From assembly GCA_013426185.1 (NCBI GenBank), contig CP058602.1, positions 399,123 to 463,122 on the forward strand: 64,000 nucleotides of DNA, read 5' to 3'. The notes beneath the pieces are model-generated. The model searched no databases. It was given only the letters and a program-made list of their open reading frames with translations, and was not told where the DNA came from. Shown here in pieces: positions 11,469 through 64,000 of this stretch (position 1 is the first letter of the stretch; every line of letters starts with the position of its first letter). Source of the stretch: Candidatus Woesebacteria bacterium. GTDB taxonomy: Bacteria; Patescibacteriota; Microgenomatia; UBA8517. The position numbers and the translations under genes were made by a program.

Positions 11469-12800
11469 TTAATACTGAGGATCAGGGTTCTCCTCACAAT
11501 ACTTCAAAATACGCCTGTGCGTCTCCTCTGGGGGAAGAAGTCTCCCTGCGCTGTCAAAGAAACAGTCTTTTTTGACTTTTTCCTGTTCCTTCCGAAGCGC
11601 CTCTGGGATTAACCTCTCGGAACGTCGGGTATAGGTTTCCAAAGGTATAACACTTATCTTTGGAAAAGGAATCTGAGGACTAGGGACGAGGCGAATTCGG
11701 GAAGTGGTATTATGATCCGCTGTCATCAGAGCAAACTGAGCTAGTGGATCCGCAGACTTGTTGCCATCTAAAACCGATACTATGTTAGTATTAGATGTAC
11801 CAAGCTTAGGATAAAAACCACCTCTTCCAACCATAGCCGCAACCCTACTTATCGCCTCAGTAGGAATTCCACCCGTAACCATTCCACCACCCGGTTCTGC
11901 TACAGCTCTAAAAGCATCAACTGCACGCGACGCGCTCTCATAAAAAGTAATACAATGGTAGTGCGCCCCAAGAACAAGGCTACGGTGGTACCCCCAAAGA
12001 AAGACCTGCCACTGAAATTCCTGCGGGACCCCCTTGGGAGCAGACCAAACTTCAACTAAGCCATGGGGGGTATTTTGGAGAAGATCTAAATAATCACTTA
12101 GGTCCTCACCACGCTCTCCCACAAAGACCAACACTGCACAAATCCTCGAGTCCTGAGTCAATTTTAAAACTTCCTTCCAGGCCTCAAGAATAAGAGTAGT
12201 TTTACCCAAGCCGCCCTCACCAAGAATATAAGTTGTTTGCCCATAACCTTGAACAGCTCCCAAAAGATAAATCATTCTCCAAGCTATACTTCCGCCTTTA
12301 TCCAGAGGGATTATCTCTTGAGGATATTCAGGCAACACTTCAAAGTCAAAAAATGGCCTATGAGAGAAAGGCTTTTGGCCATTTACGGAAGTGATACAGA
12401 CCAGATCACCCTCAACCCCCACCTCCACTTTATCCCCCATCCTCAAATTGTAATACTTCACTATAGGTGGAGGGACTTCCAAACCCCAGCTTTTCAAATC
12501 ATCCGAATTGATATCACCCTTTTTCAAAAGGTCGGCATAATCTGCAGGGTTTAGGTAGTGCGGGTAAGGGTTCGGAAGAGTCACACTCTCTCCATCAAAA
12601 GCCCAAAAACACGTGGGGCCGTCTGGCTTGACCAGGACTGCCTGAGAACTCTGGCCTATTATCTGATCAGATGGAAAAGAAGTTAAAACCCTTCGCAGGT
12701 CTTTTTCTAAAACCAAAACGGTCCTGGGAACAGGTTTATCCCCATAAAGGAGTAGCTCTTTAGGGTCAACCTCCTCCTGAATAACATAAGCAGAAATCAT
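11469..12800 (-). CDS. P-loop NTPase (GxGGxGKTT Walker A; VirB11/STAND-like, family unresolved)
   Basis: 443 aa, ILGEGGLGKTTL and a Walker-B-like VLVFVGERGED. GC-rich codon usage. RBS aaggagg upstream. Confidence 0.55.
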   Translation of the reverse strand: MISAYVIQEEVDPKELLLYGDKPVPRTVLVLEKDLRRVLTSFPSDQIIGQSSQAVLVKPDGPTCFWAFDGESVTLPNPYPHYLNPADYADLLKKGDINSDDLKSWGLEVPPPIVKYYNLRMGDKVEVGVEGDLVCITSVNGQKPFSHRPFFDFEVLPEYPQEIIPLDKGGSIAWRMIYLLGAVQGYGQTTYILGEGGLGKTTLILEAWKEVLKLTQDSRICAVLVFVGERGEDLSDYLDLLQNTPHGLVEVWSAPKGVPQEFQWQVFLWGYHRSLVLGAHYHCITFYESASRAVDAFRAVAEPGGGMVTGGIPTEAISRVAAMVGRGGFYPKLGTSNTNIVSVLDGNKSADPLAQFALMTADHNTTSRIRLVPSPQIPFPKISVIPLETYTRRSERLIPEALRKEQEKVKKDCFFDSAGRLLPPEETHRRILKYCEENPDPQY

Positions 12801-12945
12801 AGTTCCTCCTTTTTCTATTACTATTTTACCCTCGAGGACTTGGCGCTATTTTTCTTTTTGGATACGCCACGCCATAGGCTTAAAGCAAAACTTAAAGACC
12901 ATGGCATGGCGTACCCAATCGTTTGTTTGGCTTTCAAAGTGCCCT

Positions 12946-13075
12946 TCTTTAATTAAAGCTATAGAAGGCTTATCTTCCTGCTTTAAGCAAAGAAGAATTA
13001 AATTTTTAAATAAATTCTCTAGTTTTAACCAACTAACAAAAGCTAGTTGGCTAAAAAAGAGACACAGCAAGAAAG
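12946..13075. repeat. island repeat copy 1 (module 2 only), preceded by a distinct 12-bp-stem hairpin at 12862-12915
   Basis: Shares gtgcccttcttta...ccaactaacaaaagctagttggctaaaaaagagacacagcaagaaag with copies 2 and 3. Lies upstream of CDS 11469-12800. Confidence 0.8.
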
Positions 13076-15053: not shown

Positions 15054-15061
15054 ATTTTTAT

Positions 15062-15320
15062 GGCTCCTCTTGTTTTTGGGTGAGCCTCGATTAATCTCCT
15101 AAACTCAAATTAGAGAATTAAGAAACTAATCAAGGCTCACCCAGATTGGTGTGGGATAATCTTCTTTCTTGCTGTGTTGTTAAAGTGCCCTTCTTTACTT
15201 AAAGAATAGAAGGCTTATCTTCCTGCTTTAAGTAAAGAAGAATTAAATTTTTAAATAAATTCTCTAGTTTTAACCAACTAACAAAAGCTAGTTGGCTAAA
15301 AAAGAGACACAGCAAGAAAG
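15062..15320. repeat. island repeat copy 2 (modules 1+2), immediately upstream of CDS 13815-15053
   Basis: Near-identical to 18647-18905. Contains a 9-bp stem gggtgagcc/ggctcaccc, a 15-bp perfect stem cttctttacttaaag/ctttaagtaaagaag, and the hairpin ccaacta..tagttgg. Flanked by cttgctgtgt/acacagcaag inverted repeats. Confidence 0.85.
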
Positions 15321-18615: not shown

Positions 18616-18646
18616 AAAACTCTCCTTTCCGAAAAAAAATTTTACT

Positions 18647-18905
18647 GGCTCCTCTTGTTTTTGGGTGAGCCTCGATTAATCTCCTAAACTCAAATCTAGA
18701 GAATTAAGAAACTAATCAAGGCTCACCCAGATTGGTGTGGGATAATCTTCTTTCTTGCTGTGTTGTTAAAGTGCCCTTCTTTACTTAAAGAATAGAAGGC
18801 TTATCTTCCTGCTTTAAGTAAAGAAGAATTAAATTTTTAGATAAATTCTCCAGTTTTAACCAACTAACAAAAGCTAGTTGGCTAAAAAAGAGACACAGCA
18901 AGAAA
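18647..18905. repeat. island repeat copy 3 (modules 1+2), immediately upstream of the VirB4-like ATPase gene
   Basis: Differs from copy 2 by only a few substitutions. Confidence 0.85.
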
Positions 18906-21070: not shown

Positions 21071-21106
21071 TTTACACTCTCCTTCTGAAGATTGGGTTAG
21101 ATTTTA

Positions 21107-21350
21107 GGCTCCTCTTGTTTTTGGGTGAGCCTCGATTAATCTCCTAAACTCAAATTAGAGAATTAAGAAATTAATCAAGGCTCACCCAATTTGGGATTTT
21201 TGTTAAAAAGGTTCTCTTGTCGCCTCAAATTTCTTGCTGTGTTGTTAATGTGCTCTCCTTTACCAAGTTAAAAGAAGGGCAACCCTTCTTTTCTTAAGGC
21301 AAAGAAAATCAAACTTTTGAAGACAAAACTTAATTTGTCTTCAAAACTAA
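21107..21350. repeat. island repeat copy 4 (module 1 plus a divergent hairpin-rich tail)
   Basis: Shares ggctcctcttgtttttgggtgagcc...ggctcaccc...cttgctgtgttgttaa with copies 2 and 3. Tail has stems aagaaggg/cccttctt and tttgaagaca/tgtcttcaaa. Confidence 0.8.
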
Positions 21351-27190: not shown

Positions 27191-27220
27191 ATCTTCAACA
27201 CCTGGTTTTGAAATCTGCTA

Positions 27221-27865
27221 TTGCCACCTTCAAAATCAAGATATACAATTTTCTCTACTATGATTACCGAAGTTTTCTTTGATGTTGAAACAAAAACTTT
27301 TTTTGATGAATCCGGAGCCTCAAAACCTGAAGAATTGGGTATTTCTATAGTCTCTCTATACAGAAGAACCCTTGACGAAAATCTAAATGAAAAAGAAGGA
27401 AAAATGTACAGCTTTTGGGAAAATGAAATATCTCAAATGTGGAACCTATTTCTTGACGCTCAAAGAATTATTGGTTTTAACAGCATTAGGTTTGATTTGC
27501 CAGCCTTAAAACCTTACAGTCCGCCATTCTTCCCCAAACTTCCACACTTTGATATTTTACAAGAAGTGAAAAAAGTGTTCGGCAAAAGAGTTTCTCTTGA
27601 TAACATAGGTCGAGAGACTCTGGGTATAACCAAGATAGATAATGGGGCAAACGCAGTTCTTTACTTCCAAAAAGGAGACGGCAAAAGCCTCTCGCTCCTT
27701 AAAAAATATTGTGAAGCTGATGTTGACCTAACACGTAGAATTTATGATTTTGCTCTGAAAAACAAGAAATTAAGATTTAAAGATCACTGGAACAATCCGC
27801 AAGAGATAGAGGTAGACTTTTCATACAGCAAAAATTCAAAAGACAATCAGCTTGGTTTATTTTGA
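27221..27865 (+). CDS. RNase H-like 3'-5' exonuclease (DEDD-type) family protein
   Basis: 214 aa; FFDVETK (Exo I D.E), IGFNSIRFD (Exo II), YCEADVDLTRRIYD (Exo III Y..D). Confidence 0.5.
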   Translation: MPPSKSRYTIFSTMITEVFFDVETKTFFDESGASKPEELGISIVSLYRRTLDENLNEKEGKMYSFWENEISQMWNLFLDAQRIIGFNSIRFDLPALKPYSPPFFPKLPHFDILQEVKKVFGKRVSLDNIGRETLGITKIDNGANAVLYFQKGDGKSLSLLKKYCEADVDLTRRIYDFALKNKKLRFKDHWNNPQEIEVDFSYSKNSKDNQLGLF

Positions 27866-28417
27866 ATGAATATAATAAAAATAAAACCACTACTTCCAGC
27901 TTCCTCAGGAGCACTTGTATTCTTTAGAGGAAAAATCTTGCTAATTAAAAGAGATAACAAACCTAATATTCCTCATCCTGATATGTGGTCTATTCCTGGC
28001 GGTCAAGTTGAAAAAGGAGAAAGTTTTGATGAAGCTCTAAAAAGGGAATTGCAAGAAGAAATTGGAATAATTCCTAAGAGGTATAAACTACTGGGTTTCC
28101 TTAAAGTAAAAACAGACAAAGTAAAAAGAGCTATCTATTTAATAAAAATAAGCAGAGAAGAATTCAAAAAAGCTAAACTGGGCAATGAAGGGCAAGAAAT
28201 GAAATGGTTCAGACCTGATGAGATAAAAGACTTAAATGCGGTACCTCAAGTGAGAGATTTCTTCCGAAAAAATGCTGGGGTATTAAGCATGCTAATAAAA
28301 GACTGTACAAAAATTGAGGAATTGAAAAATTCTCTTAAAACGAAAATAAGAAAGGATACAGAATTTGTGTTATTTGATTTCAAAAACAACAGTAACAGTC
28401 TTGGAAACAACTCCTGA
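27866..28417 (+). CDS. NUDIX hydrolase
   Basis: 183 aa; Nudix box GGQVEKGESFDEALKRELQEEIGI. Confidence 0.75.
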   Translation: MNIIKIKPLLPASSGALVFFRGKILLIKRDNKPNIPHPDMWSIPGGQVEKGESFDEALKRELQEEIGIIPKRYKLLGFLKVKTDKVKRAIYLIKISREEFKKAKLGNEGQEMKWFRPDEIKDLNAVPQVRDFFRKNAGVLSMLIKDCTKIEELKNSLKTKIRKDTEFVLFDFKNNSNSLGNNS

Positions 28418-37632: not shown

Positions 37633-38940
37633 TTAATTTTTGAGAGAAGAGATAAAATCTTCAAGATTAACTAACTTTTGATCTCCAGTTTCTAGATCTT
37701 TGACCTTGATAAGACCTTTTTTAATCTCTTCCTCGCCAAACATAACCACCCAAGGAATACCCAAACTATCAGCATATTTAAACTGTTTATCAAGTTTTGA
37801 GGAATCATAATAAACTTCAGCGGCTATTCCTGCCGCTCGGAATTTCTTCGACAAGAGAGAATAATTTGAGGGATCAATTCCAGGAAAATTAACAACCAGA
37901 ACCTTGGAATTGGTCTTAACTTTTTCAACTTTACCTAACTTTTCAAGAGCCGAAAAAAGCCTATCAACACCCACTGAAGTTCCGACAGCTGGCAAATCAA
38001 CTTTGCCGTCTGACAAAAGTGAAATCAATTTATCAAATCTGCCACCACTGCAAACACTGCCTATTTCAGGCAAATCCAAAAGGTAAGTTTCATAAATTAT
38101 GCCCGTATAGTAGTCAAGCCCACGAACAATGGTTGGGTCAAAGACAACTAGATTTTCACCATAGCCTGATTTCTTTAAAATAGAAAACACTTCCCCCAGG
38201 TTAGATATTCCCTCAAGAAGAGCAACACTTGACCCCAAGACTTCTCTTATCTTGTCTATTTTTTCTTCGCTACTGCCACTAATTGACAAAAATTGTAAGA
38301 CTAATTCAGAAACTTTGTCTCCAAATTCAATCTTTATTTCCTCAAGAACTTTGTCTTTTCCTAGCTTACTAGTCTTATCAATTATCAAAAATAATTTCCT
38401 GGAAGCATCGCTATCAAGGCCTAATTTTTCAGATAAAGCATCAAGAATTCTTCTATTGTTAACAGAAATCAAAGCACCAACACCCAAGGCCTGCATGGCA
38501 TCTGCCATCATCATCACAATTTCACTATCAGAAAGTGCGCTTTTGGCACCAACTATATCAGCATCAAATTGCAAAAACTCGCGATACCTACCTGTCTGCG
38601 GGCTTTCGCCACGCCAGACATTACCAACTTGATATCTTTTATAAGGCAAGACTAGATCGTCTTTATATTGCGCCACAACCCGTGCCAAAGGAACAGTTAA
38701 ATCATAACGAAGCGCAACTTTTCTTCCCCCATGATCCTCAAACTGATAAATAAGTTTCTCCCCTTCCTCGCCATATTTACCTGTTAAGGTCTCAAAACGC
38801 TCGATGGCAGGGGTATCAAGTGGGAGAAAGCCATAGCTTTCGTAAACCTTTTTTATAGTTTCAATCATCCTTTGCCGAGGTATAAGCTCTGAGGCAAGAA
38901 AATCACGAAACCCCGACATCGGACCTTTAGTTTTTGCCAT
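37633..38940 (-). CDS. hisS: histidine--tRNA ligase
   Basis: 435 aa; class II motifs (GFRDFLP, RYREF, GGRYD) and a C-terminal anticodon-binding domain. Confidence 0.9.
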   Translation of the reverse strand: MAKTKGPMSGFRDFLASELIPRQRMIETIKKVYESYGFLPLDTPAIERFETLTGKYGEEGEKLIYQFEDHGGRKVALRYDLTVPLARVVAQYKDDLVLPYKRYQVGNVWRGESPQTGRYREFLQFDADIVGAKSALSDSEIVMMMADAMQALGVGALISVNNRRILDALSEKLGLDSDASRKLFLIIDKTSKLGKDKVLEEIKIEFGDKVSELVLQFLSISGSSEEKIDKIREVLGSSVALLEGISNLGEVFSILKKSGYGENLVVFDPTIVRGLDYYTGIIYETYLLDLPEIGSVCSGGRFDKLISLLSDGKVDLPAVGTSVGVDRLFSALEKLGKVEKVKTNSKVLVVNFPGIDPSNYSLLSKKFRAAGIAAEVYYDSSKLDKQFKYADSLGIPWVVMFGEEEIKKGLIKVKDLETGDQKLVNLEDFISSLKN

Positions 38941-39033: not shown

Positions 39034-39759
39034 CTAAGGGCGATAGGGAATACTTACAACCGTGATATTATCCGAACCACCACAAGCATTGGCCATCTCA
39101 ATCAAAGTTTTTACAAAATCACGATTGGAGGAGGATTGCTGATTCACATATAATACATTTCCAATTCCAATCTTTCCGTTGTCAAGATACCTAGTAAACC
39201 CATCCGTTGCCAAAACAAGCTTTTGTCCAGGAGTCAAATTTACCTCTGCAATATTTGGAGTCCGAAGCATCATCGGCTTTCCTCCCGAGCTACCCAAAGC
39301 TTGATTAAGCCTTCCCTTACGATCTTCATCACGGGGCGTGAGTTCTCGGATCTCCCCTTTTCGGGAATCAAGCAGCAAGGCAGAGCTATCACCGACCGAA
39401 AAAATACGAAAATGATTTGGCACTATCTCCTGAGCAACAACAAGTGTTGTAAAACCCTTATCAATTTTAGAATTAATAATCGCGATATCCTCTGGGGTTA
39501 CAACCTTCGACCCCTCCGCAATTTTTCTTAACAAAACAACTGCTGTTCTAGAAGCTATCTCACCATGTTCTTCTCACCCAACGCCATCTGCCACAGCATA
39601 AGTTGGTCGCGGAAGATCAAAGCCTAGCAATATTGCGTCTTCGTTAGATCTCCTTTTCAAACCCCAATTCGTTTCGCCATAAGGTTGATGAGCAGCAAAG
39701 TCTTTTTTCTCTCTACTCCTCCTCCCACCTTCCAGATCAACTCTAACTGCATCTACCAT
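39034..39759 (-). pseudogene. PP2C-family Ser/Thr phosphatase interrupted by an in-frame TGA at 39574-39576
   Basis: N-terminal ORF RRSNEDA...AVADGVG-stop. The same frame continues EEHGEIASRTAV...GGSDNITVVSI. The stop replaces the second Gly of the conserved DGMGG motif. Confidence 0.65.
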
Positions 39760-39793: not shown

Positions 39794-40036
39794 TCAATAA
39801 GCCTCTATCTGTTTTGGAGGGCACTTACTATCCGCAAAAGAACAAAAAACACAGCAATCCCCCTTCTTGGGTTTTAACAGCTTACTACAATAAACACACT
39901 TATAAAAATACTGGCAAGAATCAGTGGGCATGGTCAGCACCTGCTTTTCTCCACATTCAGGACAGGTCAAAACAGCTTTCGTCCTAATCTCGCCCATAAA
40001 GCTAGTATACACCCCACCACCGCGATTACAAAACAA
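39794..40036 (-). CDS. small Cys-rich zinc-ribbon protein
   Basis: 80 aa; CPECGEKQ...CVYCS...GDCCVFCS (three Cys pairs). Confidence 0.45.
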   Translation of the reverse strand: MFCNRGGGVYTSFMGEIRTKAVLTCPECGEKQVLTMPTDSCQYFYKCVYCSKLLKPKKGDCCVFCSFADSKCPPKQIEAY

Positions 40037-40168
40037 GCCAATATCCTAGCCACTGACAGAGGCGCATTTTGCTCGGTTGCGCTAGGAACGAACCCTACTC
40101 AGCCATAATCAGAGTAAAATCACAAGGTTCTAGCTTGTCGAATGGCTTGCACTGAGCTTGCCGAAGTG

Positions 40169-40239
40169 CTGCCCAGCAGGGATTCGAACCCCAATTTTCG
40201 CGTCCAGAGCGCGACGTCCTACCATTAGACGACCGGGCA
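40169..40239 (-). tRNA. tRNA-Gln (anticodon CUG)
   Basis: 71 nt. U1-A72 acceptor pair with G73 discriminator (tRNA-Gln identity set). D-arm GTCT/GGAC, anticodon loop CUCUGGA, T-arm TGGGG-TTCGAAT-CCCTG. No encoded CCA. Confidence 0.75.
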
Positions 40240-40500
40240 AAGTTTTAAAGAATCTCTAAGCATTAGCTTCAGAGCTTTCTTGCCTTTTGCTGTTTTAAGA
40301 TATTTTTCTCTCCTTTGTGCATCTTCTTTGCTCAAATATGCTTCGTAAAACACCAACCTTAGACCTTTTCTATTTTTTGTCAACTTCACCCCACCACTTT
40401 TATGCTTCCTAATTCTTTGTCTCAAATCCCCAGAATAACCTATATAAAAACGCCGACCATCAAACAAGACATAAACATAGTAGAATTCTCTAAGCACCAA
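40225..40500 (-). CDS. GIY-YIG nuclease family protein (small, YhbQ/UPF0213-like)
   Basis: 91 aa; YVYVL...GRRFYIGYSGDLRQRIRKH GIY-YIG core. The 3' end overlaps tRNA-Gln by ~15 nt. Confidence 0.7.
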   Translation of the reverse strand: MVLREFYYVYVLFDGRRFYIGYSGDLRQRIRKHKSGGVKLTKNRKGLRLVFYEAYLSKEDAQRREKYLKTAKGKKALKLMLRDSLKLCPVV

Positions 40501-63041: not shown

Positions 63042-63694
63042 CTAATCTTCGCGGAGACGGTATTGAAGAGCCTCGGCTAAATGATTGACAGCAATTTCTT
63101 TATCAGAAGATAAATCAGCAATTGTCCTTGCCACTTTTATAACTTTAAAATAAGCGCGCGCTGAAAGATTAAGGCTCGAGATCGCGCTTCTTAATATTGT
63201 GCGACACTCATCGGATAGGGGACAGTATTTTTTAACATCTTTTGTCCCCATCTCAGCATTTGATTTGAGCTTTGTTCCTTGAAAACGCTTTGTTTGTGCT
63301 TCCCTTGCCTTCTGAACTCGCTTCTGGATTTCCTTTGAAGTCTCTGCCTTGTTTTGGCTTGAGAAACCAATTTTTGCGTCTCAACTGATGGAACCTCAAT
63401 ATGAAGGTCAATTCTATCAAGAATTGGCCCTGAGATTCTTTTCTGATATCTTGAGATCTGGCCTGGCGCACATTTGCAAGGCCTTTTAGGATCGCCAAAA
63501 TAGCCGCAAGGACAAGGGTTTGAGGCGGCGACTAAAAGAAACTGAGCAGGATAGGTAACTGAGCCTCTGGCGCGGGAAATCGAAACTTTTCCATCTTCCA
63601 AGGGTTGCCTTAAACTTTCCAAAACATTGCGCGGAAACTCAGGAAATTCATCCAGAAATCGGAATCCTCGAAGGACAAATAAAAAAGGCTTCAT
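63042..63694 (-). pseudogene. ComM/YifB (Mg-chelatase-like AAA+) C-terminal remnant, frameshifted and N-terminally truncated
   Basis: Two overlapping ORFs in different frames carry FLDEFPEF (Walker B end), [19 protein letters not shown] and the ComM C-terminal domain. The ~300-aa N-terminal part with Walker A is absent. Confidence 0.65.
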
Positions 63695-63746
63695 AACCTC
63701 TTAAATTATCCCACAAAATTAAGGCGCAATCCCAGGGCAAAAAACC

Positions 63747-64000
63747 ATGACTGCCCAAAGATTGTCACAAATTCAAACTCTAAGGAAGCGAAATGTCAAG
63801 CGATTTTTAGATTGGGACGCAAACACCGACATTCTCAAAGACTACTTCGCAGGGTTGACCCTCGAACAAATGGTCGCCAAAAACGGTAAAGACTCTTATG
63901 CAGTAAATAGAATCCTCCTCACCAACATATCCGAAAACTGGGAACGAGACAGGCGCATCCTAAGCGATTACCTCTACTCTCCGCTGTCGATAAAAGATAT
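63747..64000 (+). CDS. partial ORF running off the window end (hypothetical)
   Basis: At least 84 codons from ATG (MTAQRLSQIQTLRKRNVKRFLDWDANTD...), no stop before the window end. Sits where the comM 5' portion would be expected. Confidence 0.3.
   Translation, partial: MTAQRLSQIQTLRKRNVKRFLDWDANTDILKDYFAGLTLEQMVAKNGKDSYAVNRILLTNISENWERDRRILSDYLYSPLSIKD

What the first reader, a model, noticed from the sequence alone, without database searches (positions are those of the whole stretch)
39034..39759. PP2C phosphatase with a single in-frame TGA at the conserved Gly of the DGMGG metal-binding motif
The two ORFs are in the same frame. Joined they give ...AVADGVG[TGA]EEHGEIASRTAV..., which aligns with the PP2C consensus ADGMGGHAAGEVAS. 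The stop therefore occupies the exact codon where Gly (GGA) is expected. The simplest explanation is a GGA-to-TGA nonsense mutation or a sequencing error. TGA-as-Gly recoding (code 25) is unlikely because secA and other genes terminate with TGA and long ORFs lack internal TGAs. Loss of the only Ser/Thr phosphatase, or stop-codon readthrough, would be biologically relevant.
Basis: seen in the sequence. Interest (0 to 1): 0.55.

Follow-up and report, generated by a model that had tools for sequence, protein, structure and literature searches.

The report
Nonsense-mutated PP2C phosphatase pseudogene
A protein-phosphatase gene in a tiny-genome groundwater bacterium (Candidatus Woesebacteria Ch104c) carries a real GGA-to-TGA stop mutation in its catalytic motif, and close relatives have broken the same gene in other ways, so this is ordinary gene decay and not a new genetic code or a sequencing error.

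Summary
On the minus strand, 39759..39034 is one reading frame: 61 codons, TGA (39574-39576), 179 codons, TAG. Joined, it is a PP2C-family phosphatase. The TGA replaces the second Gly of the metal-binding D-G-x-G-G motif, which is invariant in 24 orthologues.

The stop is not a sequencing error. Ten independent assemblies of this lineage (three haplotypes) all read TGA. Every close relative has GGA in an otherwise identical local context.

It is not recoding. In the same window TGA correctly terminates SecA, XseA and an RNase-H-like gene, and no other coding sequence is interrupted by TGA. No SECIS-like structure or Rfam match follows the stop.

In related lineages the gene is intact in two allele types (six contigs) and independently destroyed in two others. 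One has an IS1595-family insertion that removes the C-terminal catalytic motif. The other has an IS remnant at the same site, plus two frameshifts and a nonsense codon.

Best reading: a recent, fixed loss-of-function allele, one of several parallel losses of this gene in the Ch104c clade. GenBank annotates it as two hypothetical proteins (CH104c_0446/0445). Low-level UGA readthrough cannot be excluded, but nothing supports it. Interest is low.

The parts
39034..39759 (-). Whole PP2C-family gene, now a pseudogene: 61 codons, TGA, 179 codons, TAG
   Evidence: Single-frame translation. Pfam PP2C_2 2.7e-11, 43.9 bits; NCBIfam Stp1/IreP 86.7 bits, below its 230-bit cut-off. Orthologues of 245-250 aa at 40-50% identity in Woesebacteria/Shapirobacteria-like CPR bacteria.
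39574..39576 (-). Premature TGA stop, replacing the GGA (Gly62) codon of the D-G-x-G-G metal-binding motif
   Evidence: TGA in the window and in L001-L008 and L092. GGA in L009-L011, L093, L094-L097 and L098-L100, with identical flanks. Gly62 is invariant in 24 orthologues.
39574..39759 (-). N-terminal fragment ORF of 61 aa, annotated in GenBank as hypothetical protein CH104c_0446 (QLG69678.1)
   Evidence: It contains the NEDA and ADGVG motifs only.
39034..39534 (-). Downstream ORF called from an internal TTG (166 aa), annotated as hypothetical protein CH104c_0445 (QLG69677.1). The in-frame remainder of the gene starts at 39573.
   Evidence: The bases before the TTG (AGAACAGCAGTTGTT) contain no Shine-Dalgarno-like motif (read). 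The fragment lacks the first two metal-binding motifs.
39238..39306 (-). Variable patch 2 (codons 152-174, the PP2C flap region). It differs from alleles B and C by about 22 substitutions and a 1-codon indel, while the flanks are about 99% identical.
   Evidence: 16-18.5 nonsynonymous against 2-2.5 synonymous differences, depending on the codon range counted.
39424..39569 (-). Variable patch 1 (codons ~64-112). Identical in alleles A, B and C; strongly divergent in alleles D and E.
   Evidence: 24.8 nonsynonymous and 8.2 synonymous differences between A and D.
39148..39149 (-). Position equivalent to the IS1595-family insertion junction in sister alleles C and E. There is no insertion in the window.
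   Evidence: Homology of L009-L011 and L098/L100 to the window ends after window 39149. Transposase: PF12762 9.4e-36.
37633..38940 (-). hisS (histidyl-tRNA synthetase), the next gene downstream, same strand, 93-nt gap
   Evidence: Pfam tRNA-synt_His 9.9e-45 plus the HGTP anticodon domain. Synteny is kept in alleles A, B and D.
39794..40036 (-). Upstream neighbour: an 80-aa zinc-ribbon-like protein of the GDCCVxC family, Cys form, uninterrupted
   Evidence: NCBIfam NF041374, 2.3e-26, 91.8 bits against a cut-off of 40.

Best explanation
This is a genuine G-to-T transversion that changed GGA (Gly62) to TGA in a PP2C-family Ser/Thr phosphatase gene of Candidatus Woesebacteria Ch104c, and it is fixed in that lineage. 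Shown: translation under the standard code, which this genome uses, stops after 61 residues, inside the D-G-x-G-G loop. Inferred from PP2C structures: that loop's Asp and backbone hold the catalytic metals. The 61-aa product lacks most of the PP2C fold. The remaining 179 codons have no evident ribosome-binding site, and they lack the first two metal-binding motifs. The allele is therefore most likely null, that is, a young pseudogene. It has not yet collected further lesions because the lineage is almost clonal. Close relatives carry independent disruptions of the same gene (an IS1595 insertion; an IS remnant plus frameshifts plus a nonsense codon). This shows that the phosphatase is dispensable, or that its loss is favoured, in this clade of reduced-genome bacteria. 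Shown here: the stop is real, its ancestral state was GGA, the genetic code is standard, and the lesions in relatives are independent. Inferred: loss of function and relaxed or negative selection.
For: (1) One frame, 61 codons + TGA + 179 codons.
(2) PP2C identity: Pfam PP2C_2 above its cut-off, and alignment to tPphA 2J82 places the stop on the second Gly of VADGMGG.
(3) Gly61 and Gly62 are invariant in 24 orthologues.
(4) TGA is present in 10 independent assemblies (window-identical L003, L005-L008 and L092; L001, L002 and L004 with SNPs at 40382 and 38355), so at least three haplotypes share it.
(5) GGA is present in all related alleles (L009-L011, L093, L094-L100), including assemblies with accession numbers close to those of TGA-carrying ones (ERZ27245800 against ERZ27247266 and ERZ27247220).
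(6) TGA is a working stop here. SecA ends 5 aa after its SEC-C motif. XseA ends at profile position 314/315. TGA separates complete RNase_H_2 and NUDIX domains. 18 of 58 ORFs of at least 150 codons end in TGA.
(7) This is the only TGA that interrupts a recognisable coding sequence in the window.
(8) Independent null alleles exist in relatives. Allele C has an IS1595 transposase (PF12762, 9.4e-36) inserted after codon 203. The junction creates a TAG stop and removes the GGSDNITVV motif. Allele E has two 1-nt deletions, a GAA-to-TAA change and a decayed IS1595 remnant at the same junction.
(9) Intact alleles B (240 aa) and D (241 aa) show omega of about 0.27 outside two variable patches, so the gene was functional ancestrally.
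(10) The window holds another decayed gene, a comM/yifB remnant, which fits ongoing gene loss in this 0.83-Mb genome (PMC7509429).
Against: The TGA lineage shows no second lesion in the gene, so decay after the stop cannot be demonstrated. The lineage is 99.9-100% identical over 3 kb, so this absence is uninformative either way. The nonsense allele is the most frequently assembled one (10 of 22 assemblies), which could also fit a tolerated, leaky allele. There are no expression or proteomic data. I could not examine the rest of the genome for a second phosphatase, a kinase or a suppressor tRNA.
Confidence: 0.85

Rival explanations
1. Leaky UGA readthrough (near-cognate decoding, for example by tRNA-Trp) yields a small amount of full-length, partly active phosphatase, so the allele is hypomorphic and not null.
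For: The downstream 179 codons are still open and in frame. The allele is widespread, in 10 assemblies. UGA is generally the leakiest bacterial stop codon (own knowledge).
Against: The open downstream frame is expected for a very recent mutation in a near-clonal lineage. There is no stimulatory structure 3' of the stop: MFE z-score +0.79, and 162 of 200 shuffles fold at least as well. Rfam finds nothing there. The position is an invariant Gly in a tight metal-binding loop, so Trp or another bulky residue would probably cripple the enzyme. Relatives lose the gene outright, so no residual function seems to be required.
Confidence: 0.08
2. Sequencing or assembly error: the true codon is GGA.
For: The GGA version would form a run of five G (GTTGGGGGAGAA), a context where base-calling problems can occur (sequence).
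Against: Ten independent assemblies from different projects and assemblers all read TGA. These include a closed genome, another NCBI MAG, five Logan runs, two ENA assemblies and one JGI contig. The same G-run context is assembled as GGGGG in 12 contigs of the other alleles. TGA is in complete linkage with the A haplotype.
Confidence: 0.02
3. TGA is decoded as Gly, either by genetic code 25 as in Gracilibacteria/Absconditabacteria or by a local suppressor tRNA-Gly(UCA).
For: The stop sits exactly on a Gly codon, and the organism belongs to the CPR/Patescibacteria, where code 25 occurs in some lineages (own knowledge).
Against: TGA terminates conserved genes at their expected ends (SecA, XseA, RNase_H_2). 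18 of 58 long ORFs end in TGA. No other coding sequence has an internal TGA. The only tRNA in the window is tRNA-Gln(CUG). Relatives at 91-97% nucleotide identity use GGA.
Confidence: 0.02
4. A split gene: the 166-aa (or longer) C-terminal fragment is translated by reinitiation and works alone or together with the 61-aa peptide.
For: Gene callers annotate both pieces as proteins (CH104c_0446/0445).
Against: There is no Shine-Dalgarno-like sequence before the TTG at 39534 (sequence). The fragment lacks the NED and DGxGG metal-binding motifs. No orthologue is split in this way.
Confidence: 0.02
5. Selenocysteine is inserted at the TGA.
For: The adjacent gene belongs to a family (GDCCVxC, NF041374) that includes selenoproteins in other organisms.
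Against: Homologues have Gly, not Cys, at this position. There is no SECIS-like hairpin or Rfam hit downstream. The neighbour is the Cys form with no TGA. The downstream sequence is identical in the GGA alleles.
Confidence: 0.005

Closest known systems
Bacterial PP2C/PPM Ser/Thr phosphatases (tPphA of Thermosynechococcus, PDB 2J82; PstP of M. tuberculosis, 1TXO/2CM1; Stp1, 2PK0)
   Same: Same domain and motif order: GxxRxxNEDA, VADGxGG, GxTT, GDS, DG and GGxDNxT. Similar size, about 240 aa. The best PDB sequence matches are tPphA (3e-10) and PstP (1.7e-5).
   Different: It is interrupted by a stop at the second Gly of DGxGG. It is divergent: 86.7 bits against the 230-bit cut-off of the Stp1/IreP equivalog model. 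It belongs to a CPR-specific subfamily with a short insert-free core. No adjacent Hanks kinase is seen in the window or in the Shapirobacteria orthologue locus L012.
Ordinary nonsense or IS-insertion pseudogenes in reduced genomes of symbionts and CPR bacteria
   Same: A single inactivating point mutation in an otherwise intact gene. Parallel, independent lesions in sister lineages (IS insertion, frameshifts). Another decayed gene (comM/yifB) in the same window.
   Different: Nothing essential. The only notable point is that the null allele is the commonest one among public assemblies, and that GenBank annotates it as two hypothetical proteins and not as a pseudogene.
Genetic code 25 (UGA = Gly) of Gracilibacteria and Absconditabacteria
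   Same: A UGA at a conserved Gly position in a CPR bacterium.
   Different: It is a single case. UGA is used as a true stop throughout the window, and relatives have GGA.

Membership tests
PP2C/PPM phosphatase family (Pfam PF13672 PP2C_2 / PF00481) | A significant match to the family profile above the curated cut-off | tested here: met
   PF13672: 43.9 bits against a cut-off of 24, E 2.7e-11. SpoIIE PF07228: 26.6 against 25. PF00481: 18.2 against 20.3, below cut-off. The query was the joined sequence with Gly placed at the stop.
PP2C/PPM phosphatase family (Pfam PF13672 PP2C_2 / PF00481) | Conserved metal-coordinating motifs (N-terminal xED, DGxGG, central GDS/DG, C-terminal GGxDN) | tested here: met
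   NEDA (39-42), ADGVG[stop] (57-62), GDSS (123-126), ATDG (184-187) and GGSDN (227-231) are all present and aligned with orthologues and tPphA.
PP2C/PPM phosphatase family (Pfam PF13672 PP2C_2 / PF00481) | An uninterrupted reading frame that can encode the whole catalytic domain | tested here: not met
   TGA at codon 62 in 10 assemblies. It is therefore filed as a pseudogene derived from a PP2C gene, not as a functional member.
PP2C/PPM phosphatase family (Pfam PF13672 PP2C_2 / PF00481) | Mn2+/Mg2+-dependent phospho-Ser/Thr phosphatase activity | not testable with these tools
   This needs biochemistry on the intact alleles (B or D) and on any readthrough product.
Stp1/IreP-type PP2C (NCBIfam NF033484 equivalog) | A score above the equivalog cut-off | tested here: not met
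   86.7 bits against a cut-off of 230. It is a related but distinct subfamily.
Stp1/IreP-type PP2C (NCBIfam NF033484 equivalog) | Genomic pairing with a Hanks-type (PASTA) kinase | tested here: not met
   The six-frame translation has no HRDxKxxN or DFG...APE motif. No Pkinase hit was found among the roughly 60 window ORFs scanned. None is seen next to the orthologue in L012. This covers the window only; the rest of the genome was not examined.
Unitary pseudogene (recent loss-of-function allele) | A disabling lesion relative to intact orthologues, shown not to be an artefact | tested here: met
   GGA to TGA at an invariant Gly, in 10 independent assemblies and three haplotypes.
Unitary pseudogene (recent loss-of-function allele) | Evidence that the gene is dispensable (independent lesions in relatives) | tested here: met
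   Allele C has an IS1595 insertion. Allele E has two frameshifts, a nonsense codon and an IS remnant.
Unitary pseudogene (recent loss-of-function allele) | Absence of a functional product | not testable with these tools
   There are no transcriptome or proteome data. No readthrough signal was found.
Genetic code 25 (UGA = Gly) | UGA is not used as a terminator, and UGA occurs often at conserved Gly positions inside genes | tested here: not met
   TGA ends SecA, XseA and RNase_H_2 at the expected positions. 18 of 58 long ORFs end in TGA. Only one internal TGA exists in the window.
Genetic code 25 (UGA = Gly) | A tRNA-Gly(UCA) gene and loss of release factor 2 | not tested
   There is no such tRNA in the window.
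Bacterial selenoprotein | A SECIS hairpin just 3' of the UGA, and Cys in non-Sec homologues | tested here: not met
   Fold z-score +0.79. No Rfam hit. Homologues have Gly.

The most novel reading that the evidence does not exclude
The PP2C gene is a target of recurrent adaptive inactivation in the Ch104c clade. At least three independent null alleles exist (nonsense; IS1595 insertion; IS remnant plus frameshifts), and they outnumber intact alleles in public metagenomes. The two strain-variable surface patches, one of them the substrate-binding flap, would reflect diversifying selection on its partner interactions. Alternatively, the TGA allele is kept as a leaky, low-dosage version through UGA readthrough.
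Probability: 0.12. Interest if true: 0.4.

Novelty: new member of a known kind. Interest (0 to 1): 0.15.

Why it matters
Mostly as a correction. CH104c_0445 and CH104c_0446 in the published closed genome are two halves of one inactivated PP2C phosphatase gene, not two hypothetical proteins. The in-frame TGA is not a hint of codon reassignment in Woesebacteria. It also gives a small, well-documented example of parallel loss of a signalling gene among very close CPR lineages. That is relevant to how these reduced genomes shed regulatory functions, but it does not open a new question.

Tried and rejected
1. Code 25 or general TGA recoding: rejected by stop-codon usage and profile end-points.
2. 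Sequencing error: rejected by 10 independent assemblies against 12 GGA contigs with the same context.
3. Selenocysteine or a readthrough-stimulating structure: the fold z-score is +0.79, and Rfam at both gathering and E<=10 thresholds gives only chance hits.
4. Reinitiation at TTG 39534: no SD motif is visible. The sigma-70 and terminator scan was at background level (3 promoter-like sites against 2.4 expected, 0 terminators).
5. A diversity-generating retroelement as the cause of the hypervariable flap patch: no template-repeat copy and no reverse transcriptase in the window.
6. A cognate Hanks kinase, an FHA protein or a second PP2C in the window: none found.
It returned only one close orthologue (L012, Shapirobacteria, intact, next to secA) and many distant PP2Cs, and it did not recover the Ch104c genome itself.
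8. dN/dS to test for decay after the stop: too few substitutions (4-5 of each kind outside the patches) to be informative.

Full report
**Observation.** The minus strand of 39759..39034 translates in one frame. It reads MVDAVRVDLEGG...PTYAVADGVG, then TGA (window 39574-39576, 'tca' on the plus strand), then EEHGEIASRTAVVLLRK...GGSDNITVVSIPYRP, then TAG. With Gly placed at the stop, the 241-aa product passes the Pfam PP2C_2 cut-off (43.9 bits against 24). It also hits SpoIIE and, below cut-off, PF00481. It scores 86.7 bits on the NCBIfam Stp1/IreP equivalog, far below that model's 230-bit cut-off. A search of PDB sequences aligns query VADGVGGEEHGEIASR to VADGMGGHAGGEEASR of tPphA (2J82). The stop therefore lies on the second Gly of the metal-binding D-G-x-G-G loop.

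**Organism.** The downstream ORF is identical, apart from its TTG start, to 'hypothetical protein CH104c_0445 [Candidatus Woesebacteria bacterium]'. The 61-aa upstream ORF is CH104c_0446. Both lie on an 818,817-bp contig. Ch104c is a closed 0.83-Mb CPR genome from a 2.8-km-deep aquifer in Western Siberia (PMC7509429). The name is also used as a genus label for digester MAGs (PMC11237690).

**Is the stop real?** The exact 166-aa ORF occurs on contigs from many sources. In every one the 61-aa ORF precedes it. The sources are another NCBI MAG (GCA_020725745.1), five Logan assemblies (SRR27800363, ERR14790974, SRR17454618, SRR17454620, SRR26638147) and two ENA assemblies (ERZ511474, ERZ27245800). 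A pattern scan of JGI metagenomes added Ga0073932_1080033.
- All ten assemblies read ...GGCGTTGGG TGA GAAGAACAT....
- They are 99.93-100% identical to the window over up to 3 kb. They still fall into three haplotypes, defined by SNPs at window 40382 and 38355.
- So the TGA predates a little diversification and is not an artefact of one assembly.

**What was the ancestral codon?** Every related allele has GGA, with identical flanking bases. All 24 full-length orthologues (40-50% identity, 244-261 aa) have Gly at this column, and Gly61 and Gly62 are invariant. The event is a G-to-T transversion, GGA to TGA.

**Genetic code.** The window uses TGA as a normal terminator.
- 18 of 58 ORFs of at least 150 codons end in TGA.
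- SecA ends 5 residues after its terminal SEC-C motif. XseA ends at profile position 314 of 315.
- Besides the finding itself, only one other pair of substantial same-frame ORFs on a coding strand is joined by TGA. That pair (27212-27865 and 27866-28417) is a complete RNase_H_2 domain followed by a complete NUDIX domain, that is, two genes.
- A scan of every stop with at least 50 open codons on both sides finds no other TGA inside a recognisable coding sequence.
- The only tRNA in the window is tRNA-Gln(CUG).
- Code 25 and general recoding are therefore rejected for this window.

**Selenocysteine or programmed readthrough.** The 100 nt around and after the stop fold no better than shuffled sequence (z = +0.79; 162 of 200 shuffles fold at least as well). 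Rfam finds nothing at gathering threshold, and only chance hits at E up to 10. Homologues have Gly, not Cys, at this position. The neighbouring 80-aa gene belongs to the 'GDCCVxC (seleno)protein' family (NF041374, 2.3e-26). It is the Cys form without any TGA, so it says nothing about Sec decoding here. The TTG at 39534 that gene callers use for the downstream ORF has no Shine-Dalgarno-like sequence before it. That fragment also lacks the NED and DGxGG motifs.

**Population context.** This is the most informative result. Five allele types exist among close relatives (91-97% nucleotide identity in this region).
- **A (nonsense):** the TGA allele, in the window and ten assemblies.
- **B (intact):** 240 aa (P0128, locus L093, two contigs). 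It keeps synteny into hisS.
- **C (IS insertion):** B-like, but homology to the window stops after window 39149. It is followed by a 267-aa IS1595-family transposase on the opposite strand (PF12762, 9.4e-36). The junction creates a TAG, giving a 202-aa product without the C-terminal GGSDNITVV metal-binding motif. Found in three samples.
- **D (intact):** 241 aa (P0123), in four samples including a 283-kb contig.
- **E (heavily decayed):** D-like, with a 1-nt deletion in codon 41, GGG-to-TGG and GAA-to-TAA changes at codons 135 and 139, and a second 1-nt deletion. It also carries a decayed IS1595-type transposase remnant at the same junction as in C. That remnant is 61% identical in protein to the transposase in C and has an in-frame stop. 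Found in three samples.

So the gene is intact on six contigs and disrupted on sixteen, by at least three independent routes. Between the two intact alleles, omega outside two variable patches is about 0.27 (7 synonymous, 6 nonsynonymous differences). This fits a functional ancestral gene, but the counts are small. Window versus B gives 0.25 for the gene core and 0.11 for hisS.

**Interpretation.** The simplest account that fits everything is a recent null allele, fixed in the Ch104c lineage proper. It is one of several parallel losses of a dispensable PP2C phosphatase in this clade.
- Shown: the stop is real, it derives from GGA, the code is standard, and relatives carry independent lesions.
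- Inferred: the allele has no function. The 61-aa product ends within the first metal-binding loop, and no restart signal is visible.
- Not excluded: basal UGA readthrough giving traces of full-length protein. Nothing in the sequence suggests this is enhanced. The position is an invariant Gly in a tight loop, where a near-cognate Trp would be damaging (own knowledge of PP2C structures).
- Uninformative: the absence of further lesions in allele A, because the lineage is nearly clonal.

**Context in the window.** The surrounding genes are housekeeping genes: tgt, secA, xseA, hisS, gltX, aspS/asnS-type synthetase, relA/spoT, recJ, cca, secDF and dtd. No Hanks kinase, FHA domain or second PP2C is present. 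The Shapirobacteria orthologue (L012) also has no kinase next to it. Whether this was the genome's only Ser/Thr phosphatase could not be tested.

**Novelty and score.** This is an ordinary nonsense pseudogene of a known enzyme family. It is mis-annotated in GenBank as two hypothetical proteins. The parallel losses and the mosaic variable patches are mildly interesting for CPR population genetics. Interest 0.15.

Noticed in passing
window 39238-39306 and about 39424-39569 (minus-strand PP2C gene); L093, L009, L094: The PP2C alleles are mosaics. Two short patches (codons 152-174, the flap, and codons ~64-112) differ by 30-45% between strains whose flanks are about 99% identical. The flap patch has a large excess of nonsynonymous changes (16-18.5 nonsynonymous against 2-2.5 synonymous) and a 1-codon indel. 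This suggests short recombination tracts from divergent donors, or diversifying selection. No DGR template repeat or reverse transcriptase is present in the window.
   Followed up: partly
L009 2412-3237; L098 2237-2461; L100 942-1052 (equivalent to window 39148/39149): Two different IS1595-family elements (transposases 61% identical; the one in L098 has an in-frame stop) sit at exactly the same junction (AATGTATTATA|GGGTAA...) in the 3' part of the PP2C gene in two different lineages. This is either one old insertion followed by IS turnover or an insertion hot spot. No copy of this IS is present in the window.
   Followed up: partly
window 63042-63700 (minus strand), running towards the window end at 64000: A remnant of a comM/yifB (Mg-chelatase-like AAA ATPase) gene. 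Only profile positions 296-499 of 499 (TIGR00368, 5.5e-76 after manual splicing) are recognisable. There is a frameshift near 63370-63400, and TAA stops (63703, 63721) in the frame upstream. It looks like a second decaying gene in the window, and its stops are not TGA.
   Followed up: partly
window 12866-13074, 15057-15319, 18642-18905, 21102-21278: A repeated intergenic element of 90-260 nt (copies up to 99% identical) lies at the 5' ends of large minus-strand ORFs of unknown function, in the GC-richer block 10-22 kb (GC 0.41-0.46 against 0.33-0.38 elsewhere). It holds several long hairpins. One is GGGTGAGCC...GGCTCACCC, whose divergent copy at 12.9 kb keeps the pairing with different bases (GGGTACGCC...GGCGTATCC). 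An AAGAGGAG Shine-Dalgarno-like motif follows the hairpins. Rfam gives only sub-threshold matches to generic hairpin (miRNA precursor) models. It could be a shared 5' leader or regulatory RNA of a paralogous gene cluster.
   Followed up: partly
window 39794-40036 (minus strand): An 80-aa Cys-rich protein of the NCBIfam 'GDCCVxC domain-containing (seleno)protein' family (91.8 bits against a cut-off of 40) lies directly upstream of the PP2C gene. It is the Cys form (KKGDCCVFCSF). It is conserved next to the PP2C gene in alleles A and C, with a 1-codon difference in L009; an ORF of similar size lies upstream in several other loci but was not compared.
   Followed up: no
window 11469-12845 (minus strand): A 458-aa ORF with only weak, sub-threshold similarity to transcription termination factor Rho and to the ATP-synthase alpha/beta nucleotide-binding domain (34.5 bits against a cut-off of 315). 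It may be a divergent Rho-like ATPase at the edge of the GC-rich block of unknown genes.
   Followed up: no
window 40168-40239 and 40225-40500 (minus strand): The predicted GIY-YIG nuclease ORF (91 aa, PF01541 2.3e-12) overlaps the 3' end of tRNA-Gln(CUG) by about 15 nt as called from its TTG start. The true start is probably further in. In the D and E lineages, homology to the window ends near 40140, and a sigma-70-type gene lies upstream of the PP2C gene there.
   Followed up: no
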